The notes: generated by a model not told the origin, from the sequence alone. A stretch of DNA of 64,000 nucleotides from Zoogloea sp. (GCF_016703645.1 NZ_JADJBR010000009.1); one strand, 5' to 3'. Shown: positions 6,577 through 44,064, numbered from the stretch's first letter. Numbers and translations are program-made.

Positions 6577-6608
6577 AAAAAATACTGCGGGGCGCCTTGG
6601 CGCCCCGC
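6577..6608 (-). terminator. Rho-independent terminator of the NUDIX gene
   Basis: GCGGGGCGCC-AA-GGCGCCCCGC hairpin followed by AGTATTTTTT on the minus strand. Confidence 0.75.
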
Positions 6609-6641
6609 ATCGACTACAGACCCGGCAGCCACGCGGCCGGT

Positions 6642-7199: not shown

Positions 7200-7295
7200 T
7201 CCTGATCTCGCTCAAAACACAAAGACCGCAGCATGGCATCTGCGAGCCATGGCTGACCAGTCATAATCGCGCCACCTTGCACCGGAAAACGGACC

Positions 7296-7991
7296 GTGCA
7301 CGACTCCTTCCCCACCCTGCGTGACCATTTGTTAGACCCCAGCGGCGGCCTGACGTACCAGTTGCGCGCCTTCCGCTACCGCCGCAGCCTGTGGGCCGGC
7401 TTCCATGCGGCCGTGGCCGGCTGGCTGAGCGACTGGCAGCCGGACGGCTCCACCCTGGTGATTGTCGGCCCGAACGCCGGTCATGCCTTGCCGCCGGGCT
7501 TCCTGGAACGCTTCGAACAGGTCGTCGCGCTGGAACCGGACCCCATCGCGCGCCACCTGCTGGCACGGCGGCCGGATGCCCGCCGGCTACGCTTCGACAA
7601 GCTCGACTGCCTGAGCACCCCGGATGGCCTGGCCCTGCTGGCGGCACGCTTTCCCGACGCCGCCTTCCTTTTTTCCAATGTACTCGGGCAGGTCGCCGCG
7701 CCAGGCGGGAGCTGGACGGCCCTGCTCTCACGCCATCTGCAGGCACGGCACTGGGCGAGCTATCACGATGTGATCTCCACCACCCGGGTGCCGGATCATC
7801 GCGCGCCGTTGCGAAGCGCAACGGCCCCGAGCCTCGAGACCCTCCTGGCGCATTTCTGGACCCGGGGCGAGATCGCCGTGACCGACCACGAAACCCTGCA
7901 CCTGGGCGGACGCGGCGCCTTCAGCTATGCCCTGTGGCCGATCACGCCGGCACGCTGGCAGGTGGTGGAATGGGTGGTGAATCAGGCGTAG
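7296..7991 (+). CDS. Hypothetical protein (possible Rossmann/methyltransferase-like fold)
   Basis: 231-aa ORF filling the intergenic space; LVIVGPNAGH and VVALEPDP resemble SAM-MTase motifs I/II. Confidence 0.55.
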   Translation: MHDSFPTLRDHLLDPSGGLTYQLRAFRYRRSLWAGFHAAVAGWLSDWQPDGSTLVIVGPNAGHALPPGFLERFEQVVALEPDPIARHLLARRPDARRLRFDKLDCLSTPDGLALLAARFPDAAFLFSNVLGQVAAPGGSWTALLSRHLQARHWASYHDVISTTRVPDHRAPLRSATAPSLETLLAHFWTRGEIAVTDHETLHLGGRGAFSYALWPITPARWQVVEWVVNQA

Positions 7992-8548
7992 GTGTCGAGG
8001 GCAGAGCCGGTTTCCGGCGCGCGCCCCCCGCTCTCAGCCAGCCGGTAGGCCTGGGCGGGCCCGGCGGCGTCTTCATCACGGGAGCGGGTGGCCAGTTCGA
8101 CGCGGGCTTCGGCCGCCATGCTGGCGGCACGGGCGGCGATCTGGCGGTCCTGACCCGACGGGTCGGCGGGCGCCAGGGCGGCAGCGCGGATCTTCTCGGC
8201 CCGGCTCAGGGTTTCTTCGGGCGTGCGCCCGGGGGACACGTTGATGCCAACCTCGCCGCCCACGGCATAGCGTCGGCCATCGGGACCGGTCTCATAGGAA
8301 TAGCTGGCGCCGCTGGTCACCACCCCCGCCCCGGCCGCCACGTGGGCCATCTCGTGGGCACGGACTTCCCGGTCACGCTGCTTCAGTTGCTCGACCCTGT
8401 GCAGGTCGGCCTCGCTCAACCCTTGAGTCTTGCCTGGAGCATCGCCTTGCGCCTGACCCGAACGCAAGCCCGCGCCATCGGCCCGACTGGCGGGCGCGGC
8501 TGCTGAGGGACTGAATGCCGAGGACGGACCGATCGCGGAAACGGACAT
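7982..8548 (-). CDS. SprA-related family protein
   Basis: LKQRDREVRAHEMAH, YETGPDGRRYAVGGEV, AALAPADPSGQDRQIAA motifs. Confidence 0.85.
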   Translation of the reverse strand: MSVSAIGPSSAFSPSAAAPASRADGAGLRSGQAQGDAPGKTQGLSEADLHRVEQLKQRDREVRAHEMAHVAAGAGVVTSGASYSYETGPDGRRYAVGGEVGINVSPGRTPEETLSRAEKIRAAALAPADPSGQDRQIAARAASMAAEARVELATRSRDEDAAGPAQAYRLAESGGRAPETGSALDTYA

Positions 8549-8634
8549 GAGCAAACACCTGCGAACCTTGCTTTCAGCCTAGACGCTCAAGCCCCTGGCG
8601 TCAGCCCGAATGCACGGTGAACGCCAACAAGTGC

Positions 8635-9366
8635 TCACTCCCCCAGGTAGGCGGCCCGCACCTTGGGATTGGCCAGCAGATCCGCGCCCGAGCCGCTGAG
8701 GGTGATCGCCCCCGACTCCATCACGTAGGCCCGGCTCGAAAACTCCAGGGCGAGGGTGGCGTTCTGCTCCACCAGCAGCACGGTGACACCTTCGGCCGCC
8801 ACCGAGGCAATGACTTCAAAGATCTTCTCCACCACCAGCGGCGCCAGGCCCATGGAGGGCTCGTCCAGCAGCAGCAGGCGGGGGCGGGACAACAGCGCCC
8901 GGCCGATGGCGACCATCTGCTGCTCACCGCCGGAAAGGGTGCCGGCCACCTGCTGCAGGCGCTCCCTGACCCGCGGCAGCATGCCGAAGATGCGCTCCAT
9001 GTCGGCTTCCACGGCCTCGTCGTCACGCCGGCAATAGGCCCCCATGCGCAGGTTCTCCTCCACCGTCAGGCGGGTGAAGATGCCCCGCCCTTCCGGCACC
9101 AGGGCCAGGCCCTGGCGCAGGCGCTTGTGGGCCGGCAGCTTGTCGATGGCCTGACCGTCGTAGAGGATCTGCCCGCCGGCTGTACCCAGGGTGCCGGCGA
9201 TGGCGTTGAGGGTGGTGGTCTTGCCGGCGCCATTGGCCCCGATCAGGGACACCAGCTCGCCCCGGGCCAGTTCCAGACTGATGCCCTTGACAGCCTCGAT
9301 GGCGCCATAGGCCACCCGGGTGTCGCGCAGTTGCAGGATGGGAGCGGCGTTGTGGGTGGTGCTCAT
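8635..9366 (-). CDS. livF: Branched-chain amino acid ABC transporter ATP-binding protein
   Basis: GANGAGKTT, LSGGEQQM, LDEPSMGLAP; start set at MSTTH (9366). Confidence 0.95.
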   Translation of the reverse strand: MSTTHNAAPILQLRDTRVAYGAIEAVKGISLELARGELVSLIGANGAGKTTTLNAIAGTLGTAGGQILYDGQAIDKLPAHKRLRQGLALVPEGRGIFTRLTVEENLRMGAYCRRDDEAVEADMERIFGMLPRVRERLQQVAGTLSGGEQQMVAIGRALLSRPRLLLLDEPSMGLAPLVVEKIFEVIASVAAEGVTVLLVEQNATLALEFSSRAYVMESGAITLSGSGADLLANPKVRAAYLGE

Positions 9367-30716: not shown

Positions 30717-32554
30717 ATCGGGATAGGGGCGGTCAGCTAACCTGACCGTTCCCCTCCCACACCACCCGGCATGCGGGTCCGCACCGGGCGGTTCGAGCAG
30801 TTGAGGTCATGAAAGCCGAGGCACGCCGAGCCGATCAAAGTAGGCAACAGGCATGGCGCGGTTCAGCAGGAAGCGGCTGTTACGCCACCACCTCCGACTG
30901 TTCGCGGCCACCTGCCGGGCGTCCGTTTTCGAGGCGCCCATTGCCTTCAGTTCCCGATATATCGTCGTGCCCCGACGCCAGTGCTTGAGCTGCAACGCAC
31001 GCAGCCGGTGACGAAGCCACTCGTCGAGTTCGCGGAACACCTTGGGCGTCTGCGCAAGTTGGAAGTACGCCTTCCAGCCCGGCATGTAAGTCCGTAGTCG
31101 TTCGGCGACCTCCGGCAGGCTGCGCCCACCCGAGCGACGCGTCATTTCCCGAATGCGTTGCTTGAAGGCTTCGAGCGCCTTTCGAGCGACCGCACACTTG
31201 ATCCGATCCCCCGTACTGTGCCACAGCTCGTAGCCCAGAAACTTGCGACCGGTCGCCGGCGCGACCGCCGTCTTGGCCTCGTTGACCTTCAGATGGAGCC
31301 GGTCGTAGCGCTTGCGCAGCCCTTTCAGCACCCGTTCGCCCGCGTTGTGACTGCGCACGTATAATGTTGCAGTCGTCGGCATAGCGCACGAACCGATGGC
31401 CACGCACCCTCCAGTTCCCGATCCACCTCGTCCAACAGCACGTTGGCCAAGAGCGGCGACAGCGGCCGCCTTGCGGCGTGCCTTCGTAGCGCTCCATGAC
31501 CACTCCGCCATCCATGATGCCGGCCACAAGGTAGCGACGGATCAGCCGCAACACGGCCTTATCCTCGATTCGTCTCGATAAGCGTTCCATCAGAATATCG
31601 TGATTGACCCGGTCGAAGAACTTCTCCAAATCCACATCGACCACCACCCGGTAGCCGTCCTGCACGTAGCGCTGTGCTTCGAGCACCGCGTCGTGCGCGC
31701 GGCGGCCCGGCCGGAAGCCGTAGCTGTGTTCGGAGAACGTCCGATCAATCATGGGCTGCAAGACTTGCAGCAGGGCTTGCTGGATCAGCCGATCCGTCAC
31801 CGTCGGAATCCCAACTCGCGCACCCCGCCACCGGGCTGGGATCTGGACGCGGCGCACCGGCGCAGGCCGGTAGCTGCCATCGAACAAGGATTCCCGAATC
31901 CGGGGCCAATGCGCTTTCAGGTAGTCCGCCGTCTCGGCAATCGACAGCCCATCCACCCCAGCACTGCCGCCATTGGATTTGACGCGTTTCCACGCCGCCT
32001 CCATGTTCGCTTTCGCGAGCGCCCGCGCAAGCAGGTCATCTCGCCCCGGGCTTCCAGTTTCATGCCGCGCCGTCCGTGCTTCATCACACACCGCTTCAGA
32101 CTCGGCTTCACCTCGCCCTCCCCGTTGCGCCCCAGTTTCCCAGGCTTCTGATGCATTGCACGTCCGAGCAACACGGCCTTCGGCCCTCCTATTCGTTCGG
32201 CCCTTCGCCCCAAACCAGCAGCTACTGCGGCCTCTGCTGACTTCTCGCTCCGGCTCAGCACCGTCGCCCTTTCAGGCACAAGGCGAGATCTCCCCAGGTA
32301 AGAACGCACTCCTTCGCTGCACAACCGCCGGATTTACGCCACTTCGCCTTGATCACGAGAGCTTCGCGGTTCATTGCCCGCTCGCCCTGCTCGGCAGCGC
32401 CTTCTATCCGGTTCTTGTTCATCGGCTCGCAGCTTATGCTCCACGCTTCCTTCCCACGCTCGGTCGCCCTCACGCAGTTGCGCTTCACTTCGTTCGCTGT
32501 GATCAACTTACGGCGGGACTTACACCCGCAGGAGTGCGCCCATGCTGGGCGCAC
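30717..32554 (-). mobile_element. Class C (IIC) group II intron, 1838 nt
   Basis: 5' end GTGCGCCCAGCATGGGCGC at 32554, 6 nt downstream of a terminator; domain V GAACCGCCCGGTGCGGACCCGCATGCCGGGTGGTGT and domain VI ending CCTATCCCGAT at 30717; internal RT. Confidence 0.93.
30807..32156 (-). pseudogene. ltrA: Group II intron reverse transcriptase/maturase, frameshifted as written
   Basis: GVDG, GIPTVTDRLIQQA, SYGFRPGR, VDVDLEKFFDRVNH, GTPQGG, RYADD, FLGY and maturase X domain spread over several frames; no endonuclease domain. Confidence 0.85.
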
Positions 32555-33664: not shown

Positions 33665-34225
33665 TTACTCCTTCTCGTCAAAGGCTTCGCCGGTGACAAA
33701 GAAGTTGCCTCCGGCGACGTAGTGGATACTGCGCAATGCGTCGTCCTGGAAATGCCAGTGACCATCGGAGAATGAGGCCGGGTCGGCCCAGGCTGCCAGC
33801 ACTTCGGCAAGGAACAGGTCGTAAGTGCACTGAATATGGGGCTCTTCGATCACCCGGCATTCCAGCCAGCCGATGCACCCTGCCGGCAGCGGCGCCGCCA
33901 CCAGGCTGGCGGGATGGGTCTCAAGCCCGAGCGTGTTGAACTTGTCACCATCTCGCCCGGATGAGGAACCCGCCGCCAGTGTCTGTGCGGCCAGGCTGCG
34001 GGTCGGCAGCGCCAGGACAAACTCGCCGGACGCTTCGATCAGCTCGCGGGTGAAGGTGGACTTATCGATCACCACGGCCACCTTGGGCGGGTCGAAATCC
34101 AGGGGCATCGTCCACGCTGCCGCCATCACATTGCGTCGCCCGGCGTGGGCCGAGGACACCAGCACGGTCGGGCCGTGGTTGAGGAGACGGCAGGCTTTGG
34201 AAAGAGGGACGGGCTGGAGGGTCAT
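33665..34225 (-). CDS. Flavin reductase-like (FMN-binding split barrel) protein
   Basis: RLLNHGPTVLVSS..NVMAAAW..PLDFDPP..GSSSGRDGDKF..WLECR. Confidence 0.85.
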   Translation of the reverse strand: MTLQPVPLSKACRLLNHGPTVLVSSAHAGRRNVMAAAWTMPLDFDPPKVAVVIDKSTFTRELIEASGEFVLALPTRSLAAQTLAAGSSSGRDGDKFNTLGLETHPASLVAAPLPAGCIGWLECRVIEEPHIQCTYDLFLAEVLAAWADPASFSDGHWHFQDDALRSIHYVAGGNFFVTGEAFDEKE

Positions 34226-34262
34226 GGGACGTGACGGAAAGCCGGTAGTACGGCCCACAAGT

Positions 34263-34619
34263 CTACCCCCTCGGCGCCTCCTGACGTGAGACCGAAACGG
34301 GCTGCAGTGCAGCCTCGATCACTGCTACCGCCCGCTCCGGCCGGGCGCTACCGCACATGAACACGTCCACCGCCGCAAAGCCGTGTTCCGGCCAGGTGTG
34401 GATGCTGATGTGGGACTCCTGCAACAGCAGCACGCCAGTGACGCCCAGCCCCGGACCGAAGGGGTGGAAATTGCTGCCCACCGGCGTGGCACCGGCGGCC
34501 CGGGCGGCTTCGCGCAGCAGGGTCTCGATGGCCAGAGTATCCGTCAGGCGCTCGGCATCAACACCGTGAAAATCGGCCAGCAGGTGCAGGCCCCGGGGCA
34601 GATGGGCGCCGCCGCTCAC
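34263..34619 (-). CDS. speD: S-adenosylmethionine decarboxylase proenzyme (class 1B)
   Basis: GLHLLADF, GVTGVLLLQESHISIHTWPE (E-S autocleavage site), AAVDVFMCG. Confidence 0.92.
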   Translation of the reverse strand: MSGGAHLPRGLHLLADFHGVDAERLTDTLAIETLLREAARAAGATPVGSNFHPFGPGLGVTGVLLLQESHISIHTWPEHGFAAVDVFMCGSARPERAVAVIEAALQPVSVSRQEAPRG

Positions 34620-34780
34620 TTGTGGCCCCCGCCGCCGGACGACCAGCCTCCGGAACTGCTGCCGCTGCTGCCACTGCTCCAGCTACGGCTGCCGTCCCGA
34701 TCATTGACATGCCCCAGGTTGAAGAGGGTGACCACCGCCACCACGATCAAACCGAGAACGATGTAGTTCAGCCGTGACAT
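34616..34780 (-). CDS. 54-aa membrane peptide with Ser/Gly-rich tail (below the ORF-track cutoff)
   Basis: MSRLNYIVLGLIVVAVVTLFNLGHVNDRDGSRSWSSGSSGSSSGGWSSGGGGHK*; starts 3 nt after the DUF4178 stop; GTGA overlap with speD. Confidence 0.7.
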   Translation of the reverse strand: MSRLNYIVLGLIVVAVVTLFNLGHVNDRDGSRSWSSGSSGSSSGGWSSGGGGHK

Positions 34781-34783
34781 CGC

Positions 34784-36262
34784 TCAGTCGTCCAGTACAT
34801 CGGTGTAAACGGGGAGCCACAGGATGCCGATGGCGATGAGGATCAACACCCAGCTATACAACCCGCCCCGGAAGGCAATGGGTACATTGATCAGCAGCAC
34901 CAGCACCGTGAAGACCCAGGCCAGGGGGCGCAGCTTGCCCCGGTCCGCCGCCATGCTCGTGGAGGCCAGGGCGGCGAGGGAGGTGACCGATGGGGTGATG
35001 CGCCCCTTACCGCCGAACCAGCCATCCACGGTGGCAGCCGGCACCCGCTGGGCCAGGGACCAGCCCAGCTCGGAGGGGCTGCGCTCGCTGGTGAGGGTGC
35101 CGCGACTGCCCCGATAATCGGTGATGGAGACACTGTCACCCACCTTGACCCGCCAGTTGAAGGCGCCGGCCACCTGAATCACCCGGGAGGCGTAGGCCTG
35201 CATGCGGGTATAGGCCGCCCCTTCGTAACGCACGGCACTGGAAGAGACCGACTCCGGCCAGGTATCGAGGACCCGCACCTTGTCCCAACCGGCTGAGGAC
35301 TCCACCAGCCACAGGAAACCGGCCGTCTCGTTGAACATCAGATACTCGACCCACTCCTCCGCCTCGCCGACCTCCTGGCACTTCATCAGGCCGATCAGCG
35401 TCCAGGTCTTGCCGTCGATGCTGGCCTCCTCACCCAGGGACAGGGTGGTGACCAGCCTGGCCTCCCGGCGACCGGCATCCATGACCTCGGCCGTACCGGT
35501 GGTGGCATCGCTCTCAGTTCCGCAGGCCGGACAATGGAGGTGGGCGGCCACCGCCGGGCGCCACTCGATGGCGCCGCCACAGGCCGGGCAGGCCAGGATG
35601 GCGGCCTTGCCCTTGAGACGACCGGCGCTGCCGGCAATCTCCCCGGGCGTGCGCAGCAACTGGCAGCGCAGATCCCCCAGGCCCACCGCCTTGCCCGCAT
35701 AGCGGCGTGGCCGCGCGCCCTCGGAGTAATCGAGGGTGAGAAAGCGCACCCCCTGGCGATAATCCGCCACCTTGGCCTGCCAGCCGGGGCCGACCTGGAA
35801 AGGCAGCTCGCCCTCGCCGGCAATGCAGCGTGCGGTGCGCAGATCGGAGGCCGTGAAGGTGGCACCGTCCCAGGTGTACTGCCCGCCCGGCACGATCTGG
35901 CCGAAGGGCGGGGCGTCGTCGGCCAGCCCGGTGTCGAGGGTCACCGCGTACTGGCCGGAGGCATCCGACAGCCAGCCGGCGCTGCCATCGTCGAAGAGGA
36001 TGTACCACTCGTTCCAGAAGCCATCCTCGTAACGCAACTGGATGCGCCCGACCACCCCGAAGGCCTGGCCGGCATACATGCCCGAGGTGGTGATGCGGAT
36101 GGGGGAGTAGTCCTCCAGCACCACGGCCATCTTGCCCGCATCGCGCACCGCGTCGCCCTCCCGCAGCAAGGTGCTGCGGCAGTACTCGCACACGGCCATG
36201 GCCGAGGTGGCCGAGCGGAAGACGACCTCCGCGCCGCAACTGGGGCAGGCGAGCTTGAACAC
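34784..36262 (-). CDS. DUF4178-domain protein with zinc ribbons
   Basis: CPSCG..CEYC and CPACG..CPACG ribbons, two DUF4178-like units (W.EWYILFDDG; W.EYLMFN..GFLWL), C-terminal TM hairpin. Confidence 0.8.
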   Translation of the reverse strand: MFKLACPSCGAEVVFRSATSAMAVCEYCRSTLLREGDAVRDAGKMAVVLEDYSPIRITTSGMYAGQAFGVVGRIQLRYEDGFWNEWYILFDDGSAGWLSDASGQYAVTLDTGLADDAPPFGQIVPGGQYTWDGATFTASDLRTARCIAGEGELPFQVGPGWQAKVADYRQGVRFLTLDYSEGARPRRYAGKAVGLGDLRCQLLRTPGEIAGSAGRLKGKAAILACPACGGAIEWRPAVAAHLHCPACGTESDATTGTAEVMDAGRREARLVTTLSLGEEASIDGKTWTLIGLMKCQEVGEAEEWVEYLMFNETAGFLWLVESSAGWDKVRVLDTWPESVSSSAVRYEGAAYTRMQAYASRVIQVAGAFNWRVKVGDSVSITDYRGSRGTLTSERSPSELGWSLAQRVPAATVDGWFGGKGRITPSVTSLAALASTSMAADRGKLRPLAWVFTVLVLLINVPIAFRGGLYSWVLILIAIGILWLPVYTDVLDD

Positions 36263-36269
36263 CCGGTAT

Positions 36270-37286
36270 TTATCCGATCAGCTTCTTGAGGATCTCCGCC
36301 TTGGCGGAGTCGTAGTCGGCCTGGGTCACCAGCCCCTTGTCGAGCAGGGCCTTGAGCTTGCCCAGGCGGGCCTCCGGATCATCGGCAGCCACTGCCGGGG
36401 CAGCGACCGGGGCCGCCGCGGGGGCCTGACTGCCGCGCAGGGCATCCATCATCACCTGCCCCATGCCCACACCGGCGGCCAGGCCGGCGCCCACACCCGC
36501 CAGACCGCCCTCGTTCTGGGCAGCCAGGGGCACCGAGTTGGCCACCTGGTACTGGGTGTACTTGCCCAGATCGCCCACCATGCCCATGGAGATGCGGGTG
36601 TCGATGGCCTTCTGCAGCTCTTCGGGCAGGGAGATGTTCTCCACCGCGAAGTTGTCGAGCGTCATGCCGTAACGCTCGAAGGTGGGCGTCATGGCCTCGC
36701 GCATGCGCTCGGCCAGCAGGACCTGGTTGGCGGCCATGTCCAGGAAGGGCACATCCGAACCGCCCAGGGTGGCGCTCATGGTCGCCACCACCAGGTTGCG
36801 CAGCTGCTGCTCCAGCTCATCCACGGTGTACTCGGCACGGGTGCCGCTGATCTCGGTGAAGAACTTGCGGGGGTCGGCCAGCTTGTAGGAATACATGCCG
36901 AAGGCGCGCAGGCGCACCATGCCGAAGTCCTTGTCACGAAGGGTGATCGGCTGGGGTGTGCCCCACTTGCGCCCAAGCTGCAGGCGGGTACTGAAGAAGT
37001 AAACGTCGGACTTGAAGGGCGACTCGAAGAGCTTGTCCCAGTTCTTCAGGTAGGTCAGCACCGGGATGGTCTGGGTGGTGAGCTTGTACATGCCCGGTCC
37101 GAACACATCGGCCACCTTGCCCTCGTTGACGAAGACGGCCATCTGGGAGTCCCGCACGGTCAGGCTGGCCCCGTACTGGATCTCGAAATCCTCCATGGGA
37201 TAGCGCCAGGCCAGGGTGCCGTCGGCATCCTCGTTCCACTGGAGGACGTCGATGAACTGCTTCTTGATGAAGGATCCGATGCTCAT
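36270..37286 (-). CDS. SPFH/band-7 domain protein (YdjI-like)
   Basis: FIDVLQW, LTVRDSQMAVFVNEG, KWGTPQPI, RLRAFGMYS; C-terminal SHOCT-like LGKLKALLDKGLVTQADYDSAK. Confidence 0.85.
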   Translation of the reverse strand: MSIGSFIKKQFIDVLQWNEDADGTLAWRYPMEDFEIQYGASLTVRDSQMAVFVNEGKVADVFGPGMYKLTTQTIPVLTYLKNWDKLFESPFKSDVYFFSTRLQLGRKWGTPQPITLRDKDFGMVRLRAFGMYSYKLADPRKFFTEISGTRAEYTVDELEQQLRNLVVATMSATLGGSDVPFLDMAANQVLLAERMREAMTPTFERYGMTLDNFAVENISLPEELQKAIDTRISMGMVGDLGKYTQYQVANSVPLAAQNEGGLAGVGAGLAAGVGMGQVMMDALRGSQAPAAAPVAAPAVAADDPEARLGKLKALLDKGLVTQADYDSAKAEILKKLIG

Positions 37287-37747
37287 GCTTGCTCCCGATG
37301 TTGTCTTTCCAGGTATTCACTGACCGCCAGGCCGCTCAGGCCGAGGCTGCGGGCAATGGCGATTTCCAGTAGCTCGGTGGTCATCACCGCCCCGCAGCCA
37401 GGGCACTTGTCCCACTGTTCCGGAAAGGCCGTCATGCCATCAATCAGCCGTGGCCGTTCCCAATCGTGACCGCAGGCGGGGCAGACGCCCCGGGCCGGGG
37501 GCTTACGCAAACGCCGGATGCCATGCACGTACATGGACACCACCATGCCCCCCACCGCGCCAGCCATGATGCGCCGGTAGGCCGGGGTCGGATCCACGCC
37601 ATCAATGGCCCACCAGGCGCCGCCAAGCACCAGCCCGGCCAGCGCGCCGGTGAGTAATGGTGCGCCTGCATGGTGGCGATTGCGGAAAGCACGGGACTTG
37701 GCGTCGAGCGCCTTGCGCGCGTAGTCCGGGTCAATGACCGGAATCAC
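37283..37747 (-). CDS. Hypothetical membrane protein with C-terminal zinc finger
   Basis: GTG start overlapping the DUF350 stop (GTGA); two TM helices, then CPACGHDW..KCPGCG; stop overlaps the SPFH start. Confidence 0.6.
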   Translation of the reverse strand: MIPVIDPDYARKALDAKSRAFRNRHHAGAPLLTGALAGLVLGGAWWAIDGVDPTPAYRRIMAGAVGGMVVSMYVHGIRRLRKPPARGVCPACGHDWERPRLIDGMTAFPEQWDKCPGCGAVMTTELLEIAIARSLGLSGLAVSEYLERQHREQA

Positions 37748-38130
37748 GACATGCAGGCCGCATTCAGGATGCCGACCACCAGCGCCACCGTTCCGGCGAA
37801 GGCGCCGGCGGCCACGTTGTTGGCGGCCAACTGCTCGGGCAGGCGCGGCACCAGGCGCCCGAGGAGGACATAGGCGAGCACCTGCACCGACAGCCCTGCG
37901 ACGCTCCAGATCAGGAACAACTGCAGGCTGTCGTTGTGGAGAATGCTCGATGCCACGGTGAGGGAGAAGCCGATGACGGCCCCCCCCAGGGACAGGGCGG
38001 GCGCGACCACGCCCTGACGGATCAGGGACAATTCGCACAAGGGCGTGACCCGCAGGTAGATGTTGGCAAACACCAGCACCATGAACAGGCCGGACAGCAG
38101 ATGCACGACGTAATTGTAGAGCGGCTCCAT
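37744..38130 (-). CDS. DUF350-family membrane protein
   Basis: YLRVTPLCELSLIRQG..ALSLGGAVIGF..ANNVAAGAF..GILNAACMS. Confidence 0.85.
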   Translation of the reverse strand: MEPLYNYVVHLLSGLFMVLVFANIYLRVTPLCELSLIRQGVVAPALSLGGAVIGFSLTVASSILHNDSLQLFLIWSVAGLSVQVLAYVLLGRLVPRLPEQLAANNVAAGAFAGTVALVVGILNAACMS

Positions 38131-38213
38131 CAGCGGAATCCTCGGGGACCGGGCCGTTATTTAGCCAGCATTCCCCGTGCCCGGCAAGCGCTTTCCGGGT
38201 AGAGTCCGCAGCC

Positions 38214-39769
38214 ATGCACCCGCCCCAGAATGCCGCTCCGCCCCCCGCCGGGACCCGCCTGCCCGACCGCCTGCTGATCCTGTCGGTCTTCGTCGTGGCC
38301 TCCTGCGGCCTCGCCTACGAGCTGATCGCCGGCGCCCTGTCGAGTTACCTGCTGGGCGACTCGGTGCTGCAGTTCTCGTCCATCATCGGCTGCTACCTGT
38401 TCGCCATGGGGGTCGGCTCCCACCTTTCAAAGTATGTGGACGACCGGGACGTGCTGGCCCGCTTCATCGACATCGAACTGCTGGTGGGACTGATCGGTGG
38501 CGTGTCGGCCACCCTCCTGTTCCTGCTCTTCGCCTGGATGGCGGCCCCCTTCCGCACCGCCCTGTACGCACTGGTGTTCATCCTCGGGGTGCTGGTGGGC
38601 ATGGAGATTCCGCTGGTGATGCGCGTCCTGCACAAACGCCAGGCCAGCTTCAGCGAACTGGTGAGCCGGGTGCTGACCTTCGACTACCTGGGCGCCCTGG
38701 CGGTGTCCCTGCTGTTTCCTCTGGTGCTGGCGCCCAAGCTGGGCCTGTCCCGCACCGGCTTCCTGTTCGGCATGGCCAACGTGGCCGTGGCCCTGTGGAC
38801 GCTCTGGTACTACCGCCACGAAATCCCCCGCCTGCGCAGCCGCCTCACCCGCGGCGCCCTGGTGATGGCCTTCCTGGCCGGCGGCCTGGTGGCCTCGGAA
38901 AAGCTCACCCACTGGGCCGAGCGCGGCCTGTTCGGCGACGAGGTGATCTTCGCCACCACCACGCCCTACCAGCGCATCGCCGTGACCCGCTGGAAGGACG
39001 ACACCCGCCTCCACATCAACGGCAACCTGCAGTTCTCCAGCCGCGACGAGCACCGCTACCACGAAGCCCTGGTGCATCCGGCCCTGCAGACCCTGCCCTG
39101 GGCCCGCTCGGTGCTGGTGCTGGGCGGCGGCGATGGGTTGGCGGTGCGCGAAGTCCTGCGCCATGCCCAGGTGGAGCGCGTCACCCTGGTGGACCTGGAC
39201 CCGGCCATGACCGACCTGTTCACCCGCAACGAATACCTGTCCGGGCTCAACGGACAGGCCCTGTCCAACCCCCGGGTCACGGTCATCAACGCGGACGCCG
39301 GCCAGTGGCTGGAGACCCACAGCGAGGTCTTCGACCTGATCATCGCCGACTTCCCCGACCCCTCCAGTTTCGGCCTCGGCAAACTCTACTCCGTGCCCAT
39401 GTACCGCCTGATGGGCAAGCACCTGTCGGCGCGGGGCGTGCTGGTGGTCCAGTCCACCTCCCCGTGGTTCGCACCGCGCAGCTTCTGGTGCATCGACGCC
39501 ACCCTGCGCGAGGCCGGCTTCCACACTCACCCCTACCATGCCCACGTGCCCTCCTTCGGCGAGTGGGGCTTCAACCTCGCCACCCGGCAGCCGGGCTACA
39601 CGCCCCCCACCACCTACAGCGTGCCCACCCGCTACCTGGATGCGGAAACCACCCGGCTGATGTTCCGGTTCCCCCCGACATGCAGCGCCTGCCCGTCGAT
39701 CCCAATCACCTCAACGACCAGCGCCTGGTGCACTACTTCCAGCAGGACTGGAGCAACGTGGTGCGCTGA
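38214..39769 (+). CDS. speE: Membrane-bound polyamine aminopropyltransferase (spermidine synthase-like); 1-nt frameshift near the 3' end
   Basis: 7-TM N-terminus (CGLAYELI..DSVLQFS), DEHRYHEALVHP, VLGGGDGLA, IADFPDP; true C-terminus DMQRLPVDPNHLNDQRLVHYF follows the C-run at 39671-39676 in another frame. Confidence 0.85.
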
Positions 39770-39784
39770 TGAATCAGTCAAAAC

Positions 39785-39813
39785 TTGGACTTTTTCTTAA
39801 CATTGCCGATAAT
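39785..39813 (+). promoter_or_regulatory. Sigma70-type promoter candidate for the ATPase-RloB cassette
   Basis: TTGGAC-17 nt-GATAAT within an AT-rich patch. Confidence 0.55.
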
Positions 39814-39848
39814 CAACATAATTTTGTTTATTGCGGGCTTTAACGACC

Positions 39849-41030
39849 ATGCTTCACAGCTACACCTTCTCCAACTTCCAATCGTTTCGGCAGCAAACGG
39901 AGGTGTCCACCAAAGTCGGAGAGAAGGTGGTGGCCAGCGACTGGATCGCCACAAGCCCAACCGGCGACCGGGTCAATAAAGTAATGGCGGTGATGGGCGC
40001 CAATGGCAGCGGCAAGACCACCCTGCTGAAGCCCCTGGTCTTCGTGGACTGGTTCATCTGCCACTCCTTTGGCCTCGCTCCAGATGCTCCGATTCCCCTT
40101 ACCCCCCACTTTTCCGCCGAGGACGAACCCATCGAATTCTCGGTTACCGGCGATCTCGAAGGCCACGTGTGGCGCTATGTACTCCGCTGCACACCTCAAC
40201 GGGTCTTGCACGAAGCGCTTTACAAGAAGAAGGAGCGCTTCAACTATGTCTTTGTCCGGGATTGGGATGAGAGCCTGCAGAGCTACCTGATCAAACAGCA
40301 GGATTTCGGCTTCGCTTCGGGAGAGGCGCGCAAGGTCAGAGAGAACGCCTCGCTGATCTCCACTGCCGCGCAGTATGGCGTCCCCCTGGCCAAGCGCTTG
40401 GCTCAGCCAAAGGTTCACTCCAACATCACCGCACTCGGCCGGCAGCCTTTGTCGCAAGACTTGCTGCTCAACGCGGCGACCCACTTCAGCCAGCAGATTG
40501 CGCAGAGAAACCTGATGACCCGCCTTCTGCGGGACTGGGACCTGGGCCTCGACAACGTAGAGCTGGAAGAGATCGCGGTTCCCCAGCCGGATGGGTCCAG
40601 CCACAAGATCTGGTTACCTGTGGGTGTTCACCAAACCAGCGCGGGCCCCCGGAAACTGAACTTCCTGCTTGAATCGAGTGGCACCCAGGGGGCACTTGTG
40701 CTGCTCTCCCACCTTATACCCGCGTTGCATCAGGGTGGACTGGCGATCATCGACGAATTCGAGAACGACCTGCACCCCCACATGCTCGAGCCCATACTGG
40801 GCCTGTTTGCGAGCCCGGTGACGAACCCAGAGAACGCACGACTGCTATTCACTTGCCATTCTGCGGAAGTACTCAACCTGCTGCACAAATCCCAGATCCT
40901 GCTGGTTGAGAAGGACCAGAACTGCGAAAGCACGGCCTGGCGCCTGGATGACATAGAGGGCGTGCGCAACGACGACAATTTCTACGCCAAGTACATGGCC
41001 GGTGCATATGGTGCAGTGCCACGCCTATGA
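39849..41030 (+). CDS. ABC-type AAA ATPase (AAA_21/AbiLi-like)
   Basis: FSNFQSF, Walker A GANGSGKT, signature ESSGT, Walker B IIDEFENDLHP, H-loop FTCHS, YMAGAYGAVP. Confidence 0.85.
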   Translation: MLHSYTFSNFQSFRQQTEVSTKVGEKVVASDWIATSPTGDRVNKVMAVMGANGSGKTTLLKPLVFVDWFICHSFGLAPDAPIPLTPHFSAEDEPIEFSVTGDLEGHVWRYVLRCTPQRVLHEALYKKKERFNYVFVRDWDESLQSYLIKQQDFGFASGEARKVRENASLISTAAQYGVPLAKRLAQPKVHSNITALGRQPLSQDLLLNAATHFSQQIAQRNLMTRLLRDWDLGLDNVELEEIAVPQPDGSSHKIWLPVGVHQTSAGPRKLNFLLESSGTQGALVLLSHLIPALHQGGLAIIDEFENDLHPHMLEPILGLFASPVTNPENARLLFTCHSAEVLNLLHKSQILLVEKDQNCESTAWRLDDIEGVRNDDNFYAKYMAGAYGAVPRL

Positions 41031-41557
41031 ACGCCCGAAAACAGATGCCGCCAGGGCGGGTACTGCGCAAGACCTTGCTGATCGTCGGAGAGGGGGACGC
41101 AGAAGAAGCCTTTCTCAAACACCTGAAAGCCCTGTTCGTCGGCCGAACAGGCGGGATTGAGGTGAAAGTCGGCAATGCCCGTGGCAAAGGAGCAAGAAAT
41201 GTCATCAACCATGCCCGCAAGCAATGGGCCTCCATCGCCTATGATCAGGTCGCCGTGCTGCTCGATACGGATACGGACTGGTCGCCCGAGGTGGAGAAGC
41301 TCGCAAGAGATGCCGGCATCGTTGTGCTGGCGTGTACACCCTGCCTTGAAACCGAACTCCCCATTCTTGCGGGAAAACCCGGGCCGGAACGCACTCCGGA
41401 GGCAAAACGGAGCTTTCACAAGGCGTTCAACACCGATGCCCACAGACCGGCCCTTTACCCCGACGCCTTTCCGCTCGCCCTGCTGAAAGAGCACATGGCC
41501 GCAAGACCGGGCGGGCTCGTATCCCGCCTGATCCGGCTGATGACGCATACGGCTTGA
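41027..41557 (+). CDS. RloB-like (TOPRIM-fold, AbiLii-like) protein
   Basis: LLIVGEGDAEEAFL, AVLLDTD (DxD), CTPCLE; ATGA overlap with the ATPase. Confidence 0.75.
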   Translation: MNARKQMPPGRVLRKTLLIVGEGDAEEAFLKHLKALFVGRTGGIEVKVGNARGKGARNVINHARKQWASIAYDQVAVLLDTDTDWSPEVEKLARDAGIVVLACTPCLETELPILAGKPGPERTPEAKRSFHKAFNTDAHRPALYPDAFPLALLKEHMAARPGGLVSRLIRLMTHTA

Positions 41558-41569
41558 CAGCACGCGCCC

Positions 41570-43180
41570 ATGCGCCGCAGATCCTTTCTGGCCCTCGCTG
41601 GCATGGCCTTCAGCCCCTCCGGCTGCCGCCGCCTCGAACACTTGGGCATTCCACTAGCCGTGCACCAACCCGGCCTTGTCGAAGGCCATCGCCTGCGGGA
41701 TGGCACGCCCCTGCCTACCCCCACCCGCGAGCTGCGCACCGGCGTGGCCATCCTCGGCAGCGGCGTGGCCGGGCTCACCGCGGCATGGCGGCTCGCCCGG
41801 GACGGCCATGACGACTTCCTCCTTCTGGATGGCCCGGAGCCCGACGGGAATGCCGCGGGCGGGCGCTTCGACAGCCCCTCCGGCCCCCTGCTCCACCCCT
41901 GCGGCGCCCACTACCTGCCCCTGCCGTCGATGGAATCCCGGGGCGTGCGGGAGCTCCTTTTCGAACTCGGCGTGATCGAGGCCGAGCCCTTCTCCGAACA
42001 CCCGCGCTTCAGCGAAACGGCCCTGGTTCACGCCCCGGACGAGCGCCTGTTCTTCGATGGCGCCTGGCACGAGGGCTTGCTGCCCACCGAGCAGGTCAAG
42101 GCCGAGGACGCCGGGCAGCATCGACGCTTTCTCGCCGAGATGGCAGACCTGACCCGGCGCCGCGGCCGCGACGGACGGCGCCTGTTCTGCGTGCCCAAGG
42201 CGCTTTCATCCATGGATGCGGAATGGCGCCAGCTCGACGCCCTACCCTTTCGCGACTGGCTGGTGGCCCGGGGCTACAGCGCGCCCAGCCTGCACACCTG
42301 GCTCGACTACGTGTGCCGGGACGAATACGGTGCCGGCCCGGAGCACGTGTCGGCCTGGGCCGGCCTGCACTATTTCGCCGGCCGCGGCGGGCACGCGGCC
42401 AATGCCGCCGACGGCACGGTGCTGACCTGGCCCGAGGGTCTGGCCTTCCTGACCCGGGGCCTGCGCGTCCGGGTGCCCGTCGCCCGGCAGCAGGCCGGTC
42501 ATGCCCTGCGGGTGGATGAAACCCGGGAGGGCGTGCGCATTCTCTGCCAGGACGCCGCCGGCGCCTTCCTGGTCCACGCCCGCCGCGCCATCTGCGCCAT
42601 GCCCCTGCATGTGGCAGCGCGGGTCGTCCCGCATCTGCGCGACTACGGTTTCGACCCGGCCCGGCACCTGCCCGCCCAGGCGCCCTGGCTGGTGGCCAAC
42701 TTCCTGCTGGATGGTTTTCCCGCCGAACCGCCGGATGCCCCCCTGGCCTGGGACAACGTAATCCATGGCAGCCCGGGCCTGGGCTGGGTCGTTTCCACCC
42801 ACCAGTGGCTGCGGGCCGCCAAACCGGCCCATACGGTGTTCACCGCTTACCGCGCGCTGGCCGACCAGGCGCCCGCCGAAGCCCGGCGACAGCTACTGAC
42901 CCTGACCGGGGATGAACTCCTGGAGCTCGCCGCCGTCGATCTGAAACAGGCCTATGGCGCCTTTGAACTGTGGCGCCGGACCCGCGCCGTGCACATCACC
43001 GTGCGCGGCCACGGCATGGCCATCCCGGGCTGCGGCAGCCTAACCAACCCGGGGCTGACCGCCCTGCAGGCGGCCGACGGGCGATTGCTCTTCGCCCATG
43101 CCGACCTGTCCGGCTATTCGGTTTTCGAGGAAGCGAGCTGGTGGGGTGAGCGCGCCGCCAGGCTGGCCGCCAACAGCTAG
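41570..43180 (+). CDS. FAD-dependent amine oxidase-like protein (Tat-like signal)
   Basis: MRRRSFLAL, ILGSGVAGLTAAW, GAHYLPLP, WAGLHYFAGR, HADLSGYSVFEEA. Confidence 0.85.
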   Translation: MRRRSFLALAGMAFSPSGCRRLEHLGIPLAVHQPGLVEGHRLRDGTPLPTPTRELRTGVAILGSGVAGLTAAWRLARDGHDDFLLLDGPEPDGNAAGGRFDSPSGPLLHPCGAHYLPLPSMESRGVRELLFELGVIEAEPFSEHPRFSETALVHAPDERLFFDGAWHEGLLPTEQVKAEDAGQHRRFLAEMADLTRRRGRDGRRLFCVPKALSSMDAEWRQLDALPFRDWLVARGYSAPSLHTWLDYVCRDEYGAGPEHVSAWAGLHYFAGRGGHAANAADGTVLTWPEGLAFLTRGLRVRVPVARQQAGHALRVDETREGVRILCQDAAGAFLVHARRAICAMPLHVAARVVPHLRDYGFDPARHLPAQAPWLVANFLLDGFPAEPPDAPLAWDNVIHGSPGLGWVVSTHQWLRAAKPAHTVFTAYRALADQAPAEARRQLLTLTGDELLELAAVDLKQAYGAFELWRRTRAVHITVRGHGMAIPGCGSLTNPGLTALQAADGRLLFAHADLSGYSVFEEASWWGERAARLAANS

Positions 43181-43191
43181 GAGGAGTCGCC

Positions 43192-44064
43192 ATGCAGCCG
43201 TCCCCCGCCCACGTCCCGCCCCCGGCACGCCGGAAGCGGCCCTGGCTGATCGGCCTGCTGGCCGCCCCGGTGGTGATGTATGGGGTCGTCCTCGCCGGCA
43301 TCGGCCTGAAACAGGAAGACCTGCTCTTTCACCCGGAGCCCCTGCCCGCCGGCTTCAGCTTTGCCGGCCTCTACCCGCCGGAGCAGGATTTCGAAGAGCT
43401 GCGCATTCCGGTGGACGGCGCCGAACTCAATGCCTTGCTGTTCCGCCAGCCGGCCAGCCGCGGCCTGGTCTTCTACCTGCACGGCAATGCAGGCAACCTG
43501 GTGAGCTGGACCCGCAACATCGCCTTTTACCGGCAGCTCGGCTTCGATCTCTTCATGCTCGACTACCGGGGCTTCGGCAAGAGTACCGGCCGCATCGCCA
43601 GCGAGGCACAACTCCACGCCGACGTGCGTGCCGCCTGGGCGCGGGTGGCGCCAGCCTACGCGGGCAAGCCGGTGGTGATCCTGGGCCGCTCCCTGGGCAG
43701 CGGCCTGGCCACCCGCCTTGCCGCGGACGCGCCACCGGCCTTGCTGGTACTGGTAACGCCCTACACCAGTGTGGAACGCCTAGCCACCGAGCAGTTTCCG
43801 CTGGTCCCGGCAGCGCTGCTGAAATATCCCCTGCACACGGACCGACTGATCGGCGAAGTGAAAAGCCCGATCCTGATTGCCCACGGCGACGCGGACGAGT
43901 TGATTCCCTTTGATCACGCACGCCAACTGGCGGCTGCCAGCGGCGGGCGGGCAACGCTGCTGCGGGTGGACGGCGCACGCCATGGTGACATTCACCAGTT
44001 CCCGGCCTACCTGGCGGGGCTGTCGCAAAGAATGGAAGAGATCGCGAGCCGGCCGGCCAAGTAA
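43192..44064 (+). CDS. Alpha/beta hydrolase (Bem46/ABHD-like)
   Basis: YLHGNAGN, DYRGFGKS, nucleophile GRSLG, AHGDADE, GARH. Confidence 0.85.
   Translation: MQPSPAHVPPPARRKRPWLIGLLAAPVVMYGVVLAGIGLKQEDLLFHPEPLPAGFSFAGLYPPEQDFEELRIPVDGAELNALLFRQPASRGLVFYLHGNAGNLVSWTRNIAFYRQLGFDLFMLDYRGFGKSTGRIASEAQLHADVRAAWARVAPAYAGKPVVILGRSLGSGLATRLAADAPPALLVLVTPYTSVERLATEQFPLVPAALLKYPLHTDRLIGEVKSPILIAHGDADELIPFDHARQLAAASGGRATLLRVDGARHGDIHQFPAYLAGLSQRMEEIASRPAK

What the first reader, a model, noticed from the sequence alone, without database searches (positions are those of the whole stretch)
33665..43180. Uncharacterised membrane-associated polyamine system: DUF350, Zn-finger, SPFH, DUF4178, peptide and speD, divergent from membrane speE and amine oxidase
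A dedicated AdoMet decarboxylase and a 7-TM aminopropyltransferase supply a complete aminopropyl-transfer pathway (established chemistry). They are clustered with a Tat-like FAD amine oxidase, an SPFH scaffold with a SHOCT-like tail, a double zinc-ribbon DUF4178 protein, DUF350 and a Gly/Ser-tailed peptide, with tightly coupled genes on the left arm. The membrane anchoring and non-enzymatic partners suggest the product is not bulk spermidine. Possible roles are aminopropylation of an envelope substrate or protein (for example the small peptide or DUF4178), or an envelope-stress or anti-phage response in which a polyamine signal is made and then oxidised (inference). Similar clusters recur in other bacteria, but I know of no demonstrated function. 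This is my best candidate for the undescribed system in the window.
Basis: partly seen in the sequence, partly recalled or inferred. Interest (0 to 1): 0.72.

Follow-up and report, generated by a model that had tools for sequence, protein, structure and literature searches.

The report
Known membrane aminopropyl-transfer envelope module
This is a real, strongly conserved gene module joining a membrane-embedded spermidine-synthase-like enzyme, its own SAM decarboxylase and an exported amine oxidase to membrane-scaffold proteins; the type has already been noted in print, its product is still unknown, and a tiny exported peptide that always ends in lysine is a testable candidate target.

Summary
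33665-34258 is a flavin reductase, not speD (speD is 34263-34619). An AbiL defence pair (39831-41557) sits between speE and the oxidase. speE carries a 1-nt deletion in a C-run (39671-39676).

The core is seven genes: DUF350, SPFH/SHOCT, 2x(Zn-ribbon+DUF4178)+TM, a 54-aa peptide and speD, divergent from 7TM-SpeE and a Tat-exported FAD amine oxidase. All are present in essentially all complete loci among the 80 fetched (Zoogloea, Cupriavidus, Oxalobacteraceae, Chitinibacteraceae, Moraxellaceae). The Zn-finger gene, flavin reductase and hydrolase are lineage-specific extras.

In Zoogloea, speD is present exactly when the fused speE is, so it is a dedicated donor supply.

The peptide ends in His-Lys in 70 of 71 loci. 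More distant variants carry an equivalent exported Gly-rich protein that also ends in Lys.

The neighbourhood was already described by Ravi et al. 2024 and, from memory, Li et al. 2019. No function is demonstrated. No PADLOC model matches as a defence protein.

Verdict: a real member of a known but uncharacterised kind. Most likely it aminopropylates a non-putrescine acceptor at the envelope.

The parts
37744..38130 (-). DUF350 (YjfL-family) small integral membrane protein; first gene of the left arm and a core component
   Evidence: PF03994 3e-29. Present next to the SPFH gene and speE in 79 of 80 related loci. Its stop overlaps the next start (GTGA).
37283..37747 (-). Accessory 2-TM + Zn-ribbon protein (CxxC...CxxC); lineage-specific, not core
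   Evidence: No Pfam family above threshold, only weak zinc-ribbon hits. Found only in the window, L048, L050 (94-99% identity) and L060/L062/L042/L046 (about 47%). Absent from all other loci. GTG start at 37747 overlaps the DUF350 stop.
36270..37286 (-). SPFH (Band_7_1, YdjI/SamI-type) protein with a Gly/Ala-rich hydrophobic segment and a C-terminal SHOCT-like helix pair; core
   Evidence: PF13421 1.8e-79; SHOCT 5.9e-06 at 26.3 bits, cut-off 27. 60-99% identity across related loci. PF13421 also rings in the B. subtilis control genome.
34784..36262 (-). Two repeats of Zn-ribbon + DUF4178 beta-rich domain, followed by two C-terminal TM helices; core
   Evidence: PF13785 2.6e-28 with two stretches, plus zinc-ribbon hits at residues 4-28 and 219-257. 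Cys ligands are invariant in 40 orthologs. AF2 model has mean pLDDT 76, with two all-beta domains and helices at 441-486. No PDB fold match.
34616..34780 (-). 54-aa micropeptide: short basic N-terminus, one TM/signal-like helix, Gly/Ser/Trp-rich tail ending ...GGGGHK; core
   Evidence: Conserved ORF between DUF4178 and speD in all relatives. 59 distinct sequences. 70 of 71 loci end in HK: GHK 58, SHK 9, HHK 2, FHK 1. Distant variants carry an equivalent exported Gly-rich protein ending in K. Databases call it a hypothetical protein.
34263..34619 (-). speD: class 1b pyruvoyl S-adenosylmethionine decarboxylase (ESH processing motif); dedicated donor supply; core
   Evidence: PF02675 1.2e-36. TIGR03330 128 bits, above its cut-off. 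Only copy in the genome. Present exactly when the fused speE is present in 24 Zoogloea genomes.
33665..34258 (-). Flavin reductase-like protein, 4 nt downstream of speD; a Zoogloea-specific neighbour, not core
   Evidence: PF01613 1.3e-26. Present in most Zoogloea loci, fragmentary in L031/L052, absent in L032/L033 and in all other genera.
38131..38213 (.). 83-bp divergent intergenic region that must hold both promoters
   Evidence: Read directly. The consensus scan found no sigma-70-like match here.
38214..39769 (+). 7TM-fused polyamine aminopropyltransferase (PRK03612 type). The frame is broken by a 1-nt deletion in a C-run at 39671-39676; the open frame as it stands runs to 39800.
   Evidence: PF01564 3.8e-36. 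In-frame ortholog scores 689 bits on NF002956. Catalytic motifs YQ, DExxYHE, GGGDG, VDLD and DFPDP are invariant. Best PDB sequence matches are thermospermine synthase ACL5 and the T. thermophilus aminopropyltransferase. Frameshift shown.
39831..41557 (+). AbiLi (AAA_21 ATPase) + AbiLii (RloB-like) cassette inserted between speE and the oxidase; not part of the module
   Evidence: PADLOC AbiLi 6.1e-73, AbiLii 1.2e-05. G+C 0.59 against about 0.68 around it. Relatives without it have speE TGA overlapping the oxidase ATG (TGATG). The same site is occupied in L050 and L033.
41570..43180 (+). Tat-exported, probably lipid-anchored FAD amine oxidase/dehydrogenase-fold protein; core
   Evidence: PF01593 21.7 bits (cut-off 19.8) and NAD_binding_8 1.8e-07. 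RRxFL conserved in orthologs, many with a lipobox Cys. AF2 pLDDT 92. Foldseek top hits are P. aeruginosa spermidine dehydrogenase SpdH, then protoporphyrinogen oxidase, putrescine oxidase and MAO.
43192..44064 (+). Alpha/beta hydrolase with an N-terminal TM helix; Zoogloea-specific downstream neighbour, not core
   Evidence: PF12146 7.5e-21. Found only in Zoogloea loci.

Best explanation
The region encodes a PspA-less member of the conserved 'membrane aminopropyl-transfer' envelope module.

Shown:
- A class 1b AdoMetDC gene is kept only together with a 7TM-fused aminopropyltransferase that has all canonical dcSAM-binding and amine-binding motifs.
- These two always travel with DUF350, an SPFH/SHOCT protein, a membrane-anchored double Zn-ribbon/DUF4178 protein, a small Gly-rich peptide ending in Lys, and (in this beta-proteobacterial form) a Tat-exported FAD amine-oxidase-fold enzyme.

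Inferred mechanism:
- SpeD makes decarboxylated SAM solely for the membrane SpeE.
- SpeE transfers the aminopropyl group to an acceptor held at the membrane rather than to bulk putrescine.
- The product faces the periplasm. There the SpdH-like oxidase cleaves or oxidises the new secondary amine, as turnover or as a second step.
- DUF350, SPFH/SHOCT and DUF4178 assemble and confine the complex in the membrane. This resembles how SamG and SamH recruit the SPFH protein SamI in B. subtilis.

My leading candidate acceptor is the epsilon-amine of the invariant C-terminal lysine of the micropeptide (roughly 25-30% likely). A polyamine or an amino-lipid is the alternative.

In this genome the module may be impaired. 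speE has a homopolymer frameshift, which could be a sequencing error, and an AbiL cassette uncouples the oxidase from speE.
For: - Family assignments.
- Seven-gene synteny holds in essentially all complete loci among the 80 fetched, from five or more families of Beta- and Gammaproteobacteria.
- speD is the single copy in the genome.
- speD is present if and only if the fused speE is present. In Zoogloea 19 genomes have both and 5 have neither, although 4 of those 5 keep a soluble SpeE paralogue.
- Catalytic residues are invariant.
- The oxidase has a conserved twin-arginine signal. Its confident model is closest to the polyamine-cleaving SpdH.
- The peptide ends in HK in 70 of 71 loci. Equivalent signal-peptide-bearing Gly-rich proteins ending in K lie beside speE in 10 of 12 distant loci of the same SpeE subfamily.
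- The genome has no PspA. This fits Ravi et al.'s statement that Band-7/SHOCT replaces the CesT-PspA dyad.
- SamGHI precedent for SPFH recruitment by membrane partners: PMC13713150.
- Ravi et al. cite Li et al. 2019 for 'aminopropylation of other substrates'.
Against: - No experiment here or in the held literature shows the product.
- The SpeE catalytic motifs, including the DxxDP pair that binds diamines, are fully canonical. An ordinary polyamine product is therefore not excluded.
- Topology is unresolved. The positive-inside rule gives 11.2 K+R on one face against 2.1 on the other, with seven helices. That would put the catalytic domain in the periplasm, where no dcSAM is known. If the domain is cytoplasmic instead, it cannot reach an already exported peptide tail.
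- The oxidase fold match is generic (TM about 0.6-0.7, 14-19% identity) and includes protoporphyrinogen oxidase.
- The DUF4178 model gave no functional clue.
- Some distant SpeE-fusion loci lack the peptide (L133, L146, and a lower-scoring subfamily).
Confidence: 0.6

Rival explanations
1. The module simply makes a free polyamine (spermidine, norspermidine or thermospermine) at the membrane and releases it to the cell surface to protect the envelope. This is how P. aeruginosa speD2-speE2-PA4775 works. The periplasmic oxidase would then control its level or supply 1,3-diaminopropane.
For: - Canonical aminopropyltransferase motifs.
- The closest solved relatives are thermospermine and long-chain polyamine synthases.
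- The oxidase is closest in fold to spermidine dehydrogenase SpdH, which cleaves spermidine.
- P. aeruginosa has a dedicated class 1b SpeD2 plus an atypical SpeE2 that act in resistance to cationic peptides.
Against: - It does not explain the strict co-inheritance of a Lys-terminated exported peptide, DUF4178, SPFH and DUF350.
- From memory of Li et al. 2019 (paper not held): carriers of such fusions lacked spermidine, and the fusion did not complement an E. coli speE mutant.
- SpeE2 is soluble and has none of these partners.
Confidence: 0.25
2. The acceptor is an amino-lipid head group such as phosphatidylethanolamine. The 7TM domain presents or flips the lipid, as MprF does for lysyl-phosphatidylglycerol. 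The SPFH and DUF350 proteins organise the lipid domain.
For: The enzyme is fused to a polytopic membrane domain with conserved intramembrane acidic residues. The partners are SPFH-type membrane-domain scaffolds. The exported oxidase could trim outer-leaflet product.
Against: There is no lipid-enzyme family in the cluster. The TM domain matches no Pfam family. The peptide's invariant terminal Lys is left unexplained.
Confidence: 0.08
3. The module is an anti-phage or abortive-infection system in which a polyamine signal is made and then oxidised.
For: An AbiL cassette has inserted into it, in at least three Zoogloea genomes. SPFH and SHOCT domains occur in some defence contexts (general knowledge).
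Against: - The SPFH and DUF4178 proteins match no PADLOC model. speE matches only through its generic methyltransferase fold, and the oxidase only through its Rossmann segment.
- In Zoogloea the module sits at a fixed chromosomal position between the phasin gene and a sensor kinase. It is vertically conserved across genera with housekeeping-like synteny.
- The AbiL pair has a different G+C content and its own promoter-like site, so it is an insertion.
Confidence: 0.03
4. In this particular genome the module is decaying. The frameshifted speE lacks its conserved C-terminal 32 residues, and the oxidase is cut off from its translational coupling. If so, nothing functional is made here.
For: There is a 1-nt deletion in a C-run relative to every relative. 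The AbiL insertion sits at the TGATG junction.
Against: - All other genes are intact.
- L050 carries the same AbiL insertion with an intact speE.
- A one-base change in a homopolymer is a typical assembly error. It is the only uncompensated indel in about 5.4 kb of the conserved arm when compared with L048.
Confidence: 0.15

Closest known systems
Polyamine-linked PSP-type operons of Ravi, Anantharaman et al. 2024 (mSystems, PMC11237479): the 7TM-spermine-synthase/DUF350/DUF4178/small-lipoprotein group (Shewanella SO_3765 operon) and the Band-7 + 2TM + SHOCT variant with AdoMetDC and polyamine oxidase
   Same: 7TM-fused Spermine_synth, DUF350, DUF4178 and a small exported low-complexity protein are all present. 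Band-7/SHOCT stands in place of the CesT-PspA dyad. AdoMetDC and an amine oxidase are present. The genome has no PspA.
   Different: - This locus mixes features that the paper lists under two groups.
- It has no glutathionylspermidine-synthetase-like ATP-grasp, DUF1190 or DUF2491 gene.
- The small protein here is a 50-60-aa signal-anchor-like peptide, not a clear lipoprotein. Its invariant C-terminal Lys is not mentioned in the paper or its supplement.
AdoMetDC / membrane SpdSyn-like fusion / DUF350 gene clusters of Li, Kurihara, Kim, Liang and Michael 2019 (Biochem J 476:2579; not held, content from memory and from its citation)
   Same: A class 1b AdoMetDC is linked to a membrane-fused SpdSyn-like protein and DUF350. 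The proposal is that a substrate other than putrescine is aminopropylated.
   Different: The protein here is NCBIfam NF002956 (PRK03612). It scores only 26.7 bits on the 'fused MFS/spermidine synthase' model NF037959, whose cut-off is 40. I could not verify which fusion family that paper tested.
Bacillus subtilis PspA-SamGHI (YdjGHI) membrane-stress system (PMC8581546, PMC13713150)
   Same: It has a Band_7_1-type cytosolic SPFH protein recruited by membrane partners. One partner has two Zn ribbons plus a TM segment. The other has a TM segment followed by a Gly-rich tail. JGI labels some of the micropeptides 'YgcG' for that resemblance.
   Different: There is no PspA and no TPM domain. DUF4178 is not the YdjG domain. 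SamGHI has no polyamine enzymes.
Pseudomonas aeruginosa speD2-speE2-PA4775 operon (PmrAB-regulated; norspermidine/thermospermine synthase; PMC11107197, PMC7179292)
   Same: A dedicated class 1b AdoMetDC is paired with an atypical aminopropyltransferase and serves envelope protection rather than bulk spermidine synthesis.
   Different: SpeE2 is a soluble 349-aa enzyme. That operon has no DUF350, DUF4178, SPFH, peptide or oxidase partners. Its products are free polyamines.

Membership tests
Ravi et al. 2024 polyamine-linked PSP-type operon (7TM-SpeE/DUF350/DUF4178 group with Band-7/SHOCT replacement) | Spermine/spermidine-synthase domain fused to an N-terminal 7TM domain | tested here: met
   PF01564 at residues 279-457 after seven hydrophobic helices. 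NF002956 scores 689 bits for the in-frame ortholog.
Ravi et al. 2024 polyamine-linked PSP-type operon (7TM-SpeE/DUF350/DUF4178 group with Band-7/SHOCT replacement) | YjfL/DUF350 membrane protein and DUF4178 protein in the same operon | tested here: met
   PF03994 3e-29 and PF13785 2.6e-28. They co-occur in 70 or more related loci.
Ravi et al. 2024 polyamine-linked PSP-type operon (7TM-SpeE/DUF350/DUF4178 group with Band-7/SHOCT replacement) | Small exported or lipoprotein component with a low-complexity tail (Ctha_1186 + Low-comp) | tested here: inconclusive
   A TM/signal peptide with a Gly-rich tail is present. Homology to the Ctha_1186 domain itself was not tested because no model was available.
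Ravi et al. 2024 polyamine-linked PSP-type operon (7TM-SpeE/DUF350/DUF4178 group with Band-7/SHOCT replacement) | Band-7 + membrane segment + SHOCT protein in place of CesT-PspA, with AdoMetDC and polyamine oxidase | tested here: met
   Band_7_1 1.8e-79 and SHOCT 26.3 bits. No PspA in the genome. AdoMetDC shown. The oxidase has an amine-oxidase fold.
Ravi et al. 2024 third group (glutathionylspermidine-synthetase-like ATP-grasp operons) | ATP-grasp peptide ligase, DUF1190 lipoprotein, DUF2491 | tested here: not met
   No such ORF lies in or next to the cluster. Every ORF between 33665 and 44064 is assigned to another family.
Li et al. 2019 AdoMetDC / membrane SpdSyn-fusion cluster | Class 1b AdoMetDC genetically linked to a membrane-fused SpdSyn-like gene and DUF350 | tested here: met
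   speD and the fused speE are present or absent together in 24 Zoogloea genomes.
Li et al. 2019 AdoMetDC / membrane SpdSyn-fusion cluster | Carrier lacks spermidine, and the fusion does not complement a speE mutant | not testable with these tools
   This needs polyamine analysis and complementation experiments.
Canonical spermidine synthase SpeE (TIGR00417 equivalog) | Score above the curated cut-off; soluble tetramerisation-plus-catalytic architecture | tested here: not met
   TIGR00417 scores 127 bits against a cut-off of 249.55, and the protein has an N-terminal 7TM domain. The catalytic motifs themselves are conserved.
Known anti-phage defence systems (PADLOC 2.0) | Core proteins match a defence-system model | tested here: not met
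   SPFH and DUF4178 give no hits. speE gives only a methyltransferase-fold match (mad2), and the oxidase only a Rossmann segment. AbiL models match only the inserted pair.
B. subtilis PspA-SamGHI system | PspA plus a TPM-domain protein plus a Band_7_1 SPFH protein | tested here: not met
   Band_7_1 is present, but PspA is absent from the genome and there is no TPM domain in the cluster.

The most novel reading that the evidence does not exclude
The aminopropyltransferase modifies a protein. It would put an aminopropyl group on the epsilon-amine of the invariant C-terminal lysine of the exported Gly-rich micropeptide, giving N-epsilon-aminopropyl-lysine, a new post-translational modification. 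This could happen outside the cytoplasm, with the 7TM domain handing decarboxylated SAM across the membrane. The Tat-exported flavoenzyme would then act as its eraser or convert it into a reactive aldehyde. LSD1, which evolved from polyamine oxidases, acts on alkylated lysine in a comparable way.
Probability: 0.15. Interest if true: 0.85.

Novelty: new member of a known kind. Interest (0 to 1): 0.5.

Why it matters
The only established role of S-adenosylmethionine decarboxylase is polyamine synthesis. This module is found in roughly a tenth of sampled Pseudomonadota genomes: 31 of 301 carry the full-length fusion enzyme. It is the main candidate for a polyamine-independent role, and its product has been an open question since 2019.

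The locus itself adds no new kind of system. The comparison made here sharpens the question in three ways:
- The donor gene is inherited only together with the membrane enzyme.
- The oxidase is exported and SpdH-like.
- A small exported peptide with an invariant terminal lysine accompanies the enzyme across very different operon variants.

That gives a concrete acceptor hypothesis, checkable by mass spectrometry, and a topology question that a few reporter fusions would settle.

Tried and rejected
Comparison with the nearest locus (about 94-97% DNA identity) shows only that it is the single uncompensated indel in the conserved arm.
2. Fold search of the DUF4178 model. There is no meaningful PDB match (TM about 0.1). 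Sequence search of the PDB also gave nothing for DUF4178, SPFH or the oxidase.
3. Pfam search of the 7TM domain alone. No family matched. An exhaustive search of the representatives found 2380 relatives. The 150 best listed are full-length fusions of about 500-560 aa or shorter pieces, and none has a different architecture that would fix the topology.
4. Pfam search of the micropeptide and the Zn-ribbon protein at a loose threshold. Only noise and generic ribbon hits came back.
5. Literature. Li et al. 2019 is not held. Searches for the Shewanella locus tags and for Rv2601 topology gave nothing useful.
6. A defence-system reading was rejected after the PADLOC scan.
7. The idea that the second, soluble SpeE paralogue (contig C9:962130-963035) uses this speD for ordinary spermidine synthesis was rejected as the main role. 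That paralogue persists in Zoogloea genomes that have no speD at all.

Full report
**Anatomy.** ORF listing and translation, followed by Pfam, NCBIfam and PADLOC scans, give the following map.

Minus strand, in order of transcription:
- DUF350, 37744-38130.
- A 2-TM/Zn-ribbon protein, 37283-37747.
- SPFH Band_7_1 with a SHOCT-like end, 36270-37286.
- A protein with two Zn-ribbon + DUF4178 repeats and two C-terminal TM helices, 34784-36262.
- A 54-aa TM peptide with a Gly/Ser/Trp tail ending GGGGHK, 34616-34780.
- Class 1b AdoMetDC, 34263-34619.
- A flavin reductase, 33665-34258.

The junctions are GTGA, ATGA and GTGA overlaps, or gaps of 3-7 nt.

An 83-bp divergent region separates the two arms. 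On the plus strand lie:
- A 7TM-fused aminopropyltransferase, from 38214.
- An AbiLi/AbiLii pair, 39831-41557.
- A twin-arginine FAD amine-oxidase-fold protein, 41570-43180.
- An alpha/beta hydrolase, 43192-44064.

However, the range also contains a flavin reductase it did not name and an AbiL insertion it treated elsewhere. The leftmost gene is not speD.

**Two local lesions.**
- Every relative carries speE in one frame through a conserved tail (...FPPDMQRLPVDPNHLNDQRLVHYFQQDW..VR). The stop TGA overlaps the oxidase ATG (TGATG). In the window a run of six C (39671-39676) is one base short, so the last 32 residues are replaced by out-of-frame sequence.
- The AbiL cassette has low G+C and its own promoter-like site at 39786-39813. 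It sits exactly at that TGATG junction. The same site is occupied in two other Zoogloea genomes (L050, 98/92% identity; L033, 77/60%). It is empty in the nearest relative, L048.

**Is the cluster a unit?** Relatives were fetched from the genus. A scan of named genomes then showed the genus to be Zoogloea.
- In essentially every complete locus among the 80 fetched, the order DUF350 - SPFH - DUF4178 - peptide - speD || speE - oxidase is kept. This covers Zoogloea, Cupriavidus, Duganella, Janthinobacterium, Massilia, Jeongeupia, Chitinibacter, Silvimonas and Moraxellaceae. Protein identity falls to 40-50%.
- The Zn-ribbon gene occurs in only a few Zoogloea genomes. The flavin reductase and the hydrolase occur only in Zoogloea.
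- The genome has a single AdoMetDC gene, the one in this cluster.
- Among 24 Zoogloea species genomes, 19 have both speD and the fused speE and 5 have neither. Four of those five keep a soluble SpeE paralogue.

speD is therefore a dedicated supply for the membrane enzyme, not for that paralogue.

**The enzymes.**
- SpeD passes the NCBIfam equivalog cut-off and has the ESH self-processing motif.
- The fusion enzyme belongs to NF002956/PRK03612. It keeps every canonical motif (YQ, DExxYHE, GGGDG, VDLD, DFPDP). Its nearest solved relatives by sequence are thermospermine synthase and the T. thermophilus long-chain aminopropyltransferase.
- The oxidase only just passes Pfam's Amino_oxidase threshold and has no PDB relative by sequence. 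A 41-sequence alignment gave a confident model, pLDDT 92. Its best Foldseek matches are P. aeruginosa spermidine dehydrogenase SpdH, then protoporphyrinogen oxidase, putrescine oxidase and monoamine oxidases.
- The RRxFL motif of the oxidase is conserved, and many orthologs have a lipobox Cys. It works in the periplasm.

**The micropeptide.**
- It is conserved between DUF4178 and speD in all relatives, with 59 distinct sequences.
- It ends in His-Lys in 70 of 71 loci where the interval is complete.
- A sample of 301 Pseudomonadota genomes had the full-length fusion enzyme in 31. I fetched 20 distant loci.
- Where the SpeE is of the same subfamily, 10 of 12 loci have a small signal-peptide-bearing Gly/Tyr/Ser-rich protein next to speE or DUF350. 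Its end is again Lys...PTHK...GRVK...GRIK...PGSGK...LRGGK...LHGGK...GRSGK.
- A terminal lysine on a flexible exported tail is thus the most persistent feature of this partner.
- Databases call it a hypothetical protein. JGI sometimes labels it YgcG because of the TM + Gly-rich tail.

**Topology problem.** Counting K+R in the loops of the seven-helix domain gives 11.2 on the face formed by the N-terminus and loops 2-3, 4-5 and 6-7. The other face has 2.1.
- With seven helices this predicts an exported catalytic domain. It would then sit beside the exported peptide tail and the Tat oxidase, but would need decarboxylated SAM to cross the membrane.
- If helix 7 does not span the membrane, the domain is cytoplasmic. 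Then the product, or the peptide before export, has to make the link.

I could not resolve this with the tools. The TM domain has no Pfam family, and the listed relatives show no informative fusion partners.

**What is known.**
- Ravi et al. 2024 describe operons with 7TM-spermine synthase, DUF350, DUF4178 and a small lipoprotein. They also describe a variant in which a Band-7 + 2TM + SHOCT protein replaces the CesT-PspA dyad and which adds AdoMetDC and polyamine oxidase. They propose that these operons monitor polyamines or the 'aminopropylation of other substrates', citing Li et al. 2019.
- Li et al. 2019 is not held. From memory, it reports that such AdoMetDCs are active, that carriers lack spermidine, and that the fusion does not complement a speE mutant.
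- This genome has no PspA. That matches the PspA-less variant.
- The SPFH protein is of the Band_7_1 type found in B. subtilis. There SamG and SamH recruit the SPFH protein SamI.
- P. aeruginosa speD2-speE2-PA4775 is the nearest experimentally studied analogue of a dedicated donor/transferase pair serving the envelope. It is soluble and makes free polyamines.
- PADLOC gives no defence assignment to any core gene.

**Verdict.** It is a member of a kind already noted in print, and its chemistry is unknown.
- My best reading is a dedicated membrane aminopropyl-transfer system acting on a non-putrescine acceptor at the envelope, with the exported oxidase acting on the product and the SPFH/DUF4178/DUF350 proteins as the scaffold.
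- The lysine-terminated micropeptide is the leading candidate acceptor, at about 25-30%.
- Free-polyamine production for surface protection is the main rival.
- Earlier notes of this scan on the same module in other genomes reached the same points. I read them after my own analysis and do not count them as independent evidence.

Noticed in passing
window 39831-41557 (junctions at about 39769-39775 and 41560-41572): An AbiLi/AbiLii cassette is inserted exactly at the speE-stop/oxidase-start overlap (TGATG in relatives). The same site is occupied in two other Zoogloea genomes by alleles 98/92% and 77/60% identical. In the occupied loci the first part of the oxidase signal peptide differs but keeps the RR motif and the Cys.
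   Followed up: partly
window 39671-39676: A run of six C where the closest relative (L027/L047) has seven and other relatives have one more base in an interrupted run. This shifts the speE frame for its last 32 codons. It may be a homopolymer assembly error.
   Followed up: partly
genome contig C9:962130-963035 (outside the window): A second, soluble SpeE-like gene (301 aa, PF01564 8e-35) lies next to a TauE/SafE-type membrane gene. Its orthologs persist in Zoogloea genomes that have no AdoMetDC gene at all, so its donor and role are unclear.
   Followed up: partly
whole genome (G000): No PspA/IM30 homolog (PF04012) exists anywhere in this complete genome, although the same search rings in 9 of the 14 control genomes.
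   Followed up: yes
window 30880-32091 (-): A group II intron-type reverse transcriptase ORF lies between the phasin gene and the PHB depolymerase gene. Its translation looks out of frame between the GTPQGG motif and the YADD motif, and again after YADD, which suggests indels.
   Followed up: no
L031/L052 about 5295-5459 (Zoogloea oleivorans), L032, L033: The flavin reductase downstream of speD is reduced to fragments in Z. oleivorans and absent in two other Zoogloea genomes. It is therefore dispensable for the module.
   Followed up: partly
L038/L063 about 4400-9350 (Zoogloea sp. XM6): About 5 kb of unrelated DNA separates DUF350 from the SPFH gene in this one genome. This is another insertion into the module and was not examined.
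   Followed up: no
L078 and L097 (Moraxellaceae/Agitococcus): The gene order differs here. speD lies between the SPFH gene and DUF4178, and the peptide follows DUF4178. The set of genes is conserved more strictly than their order.
   Followed up: no
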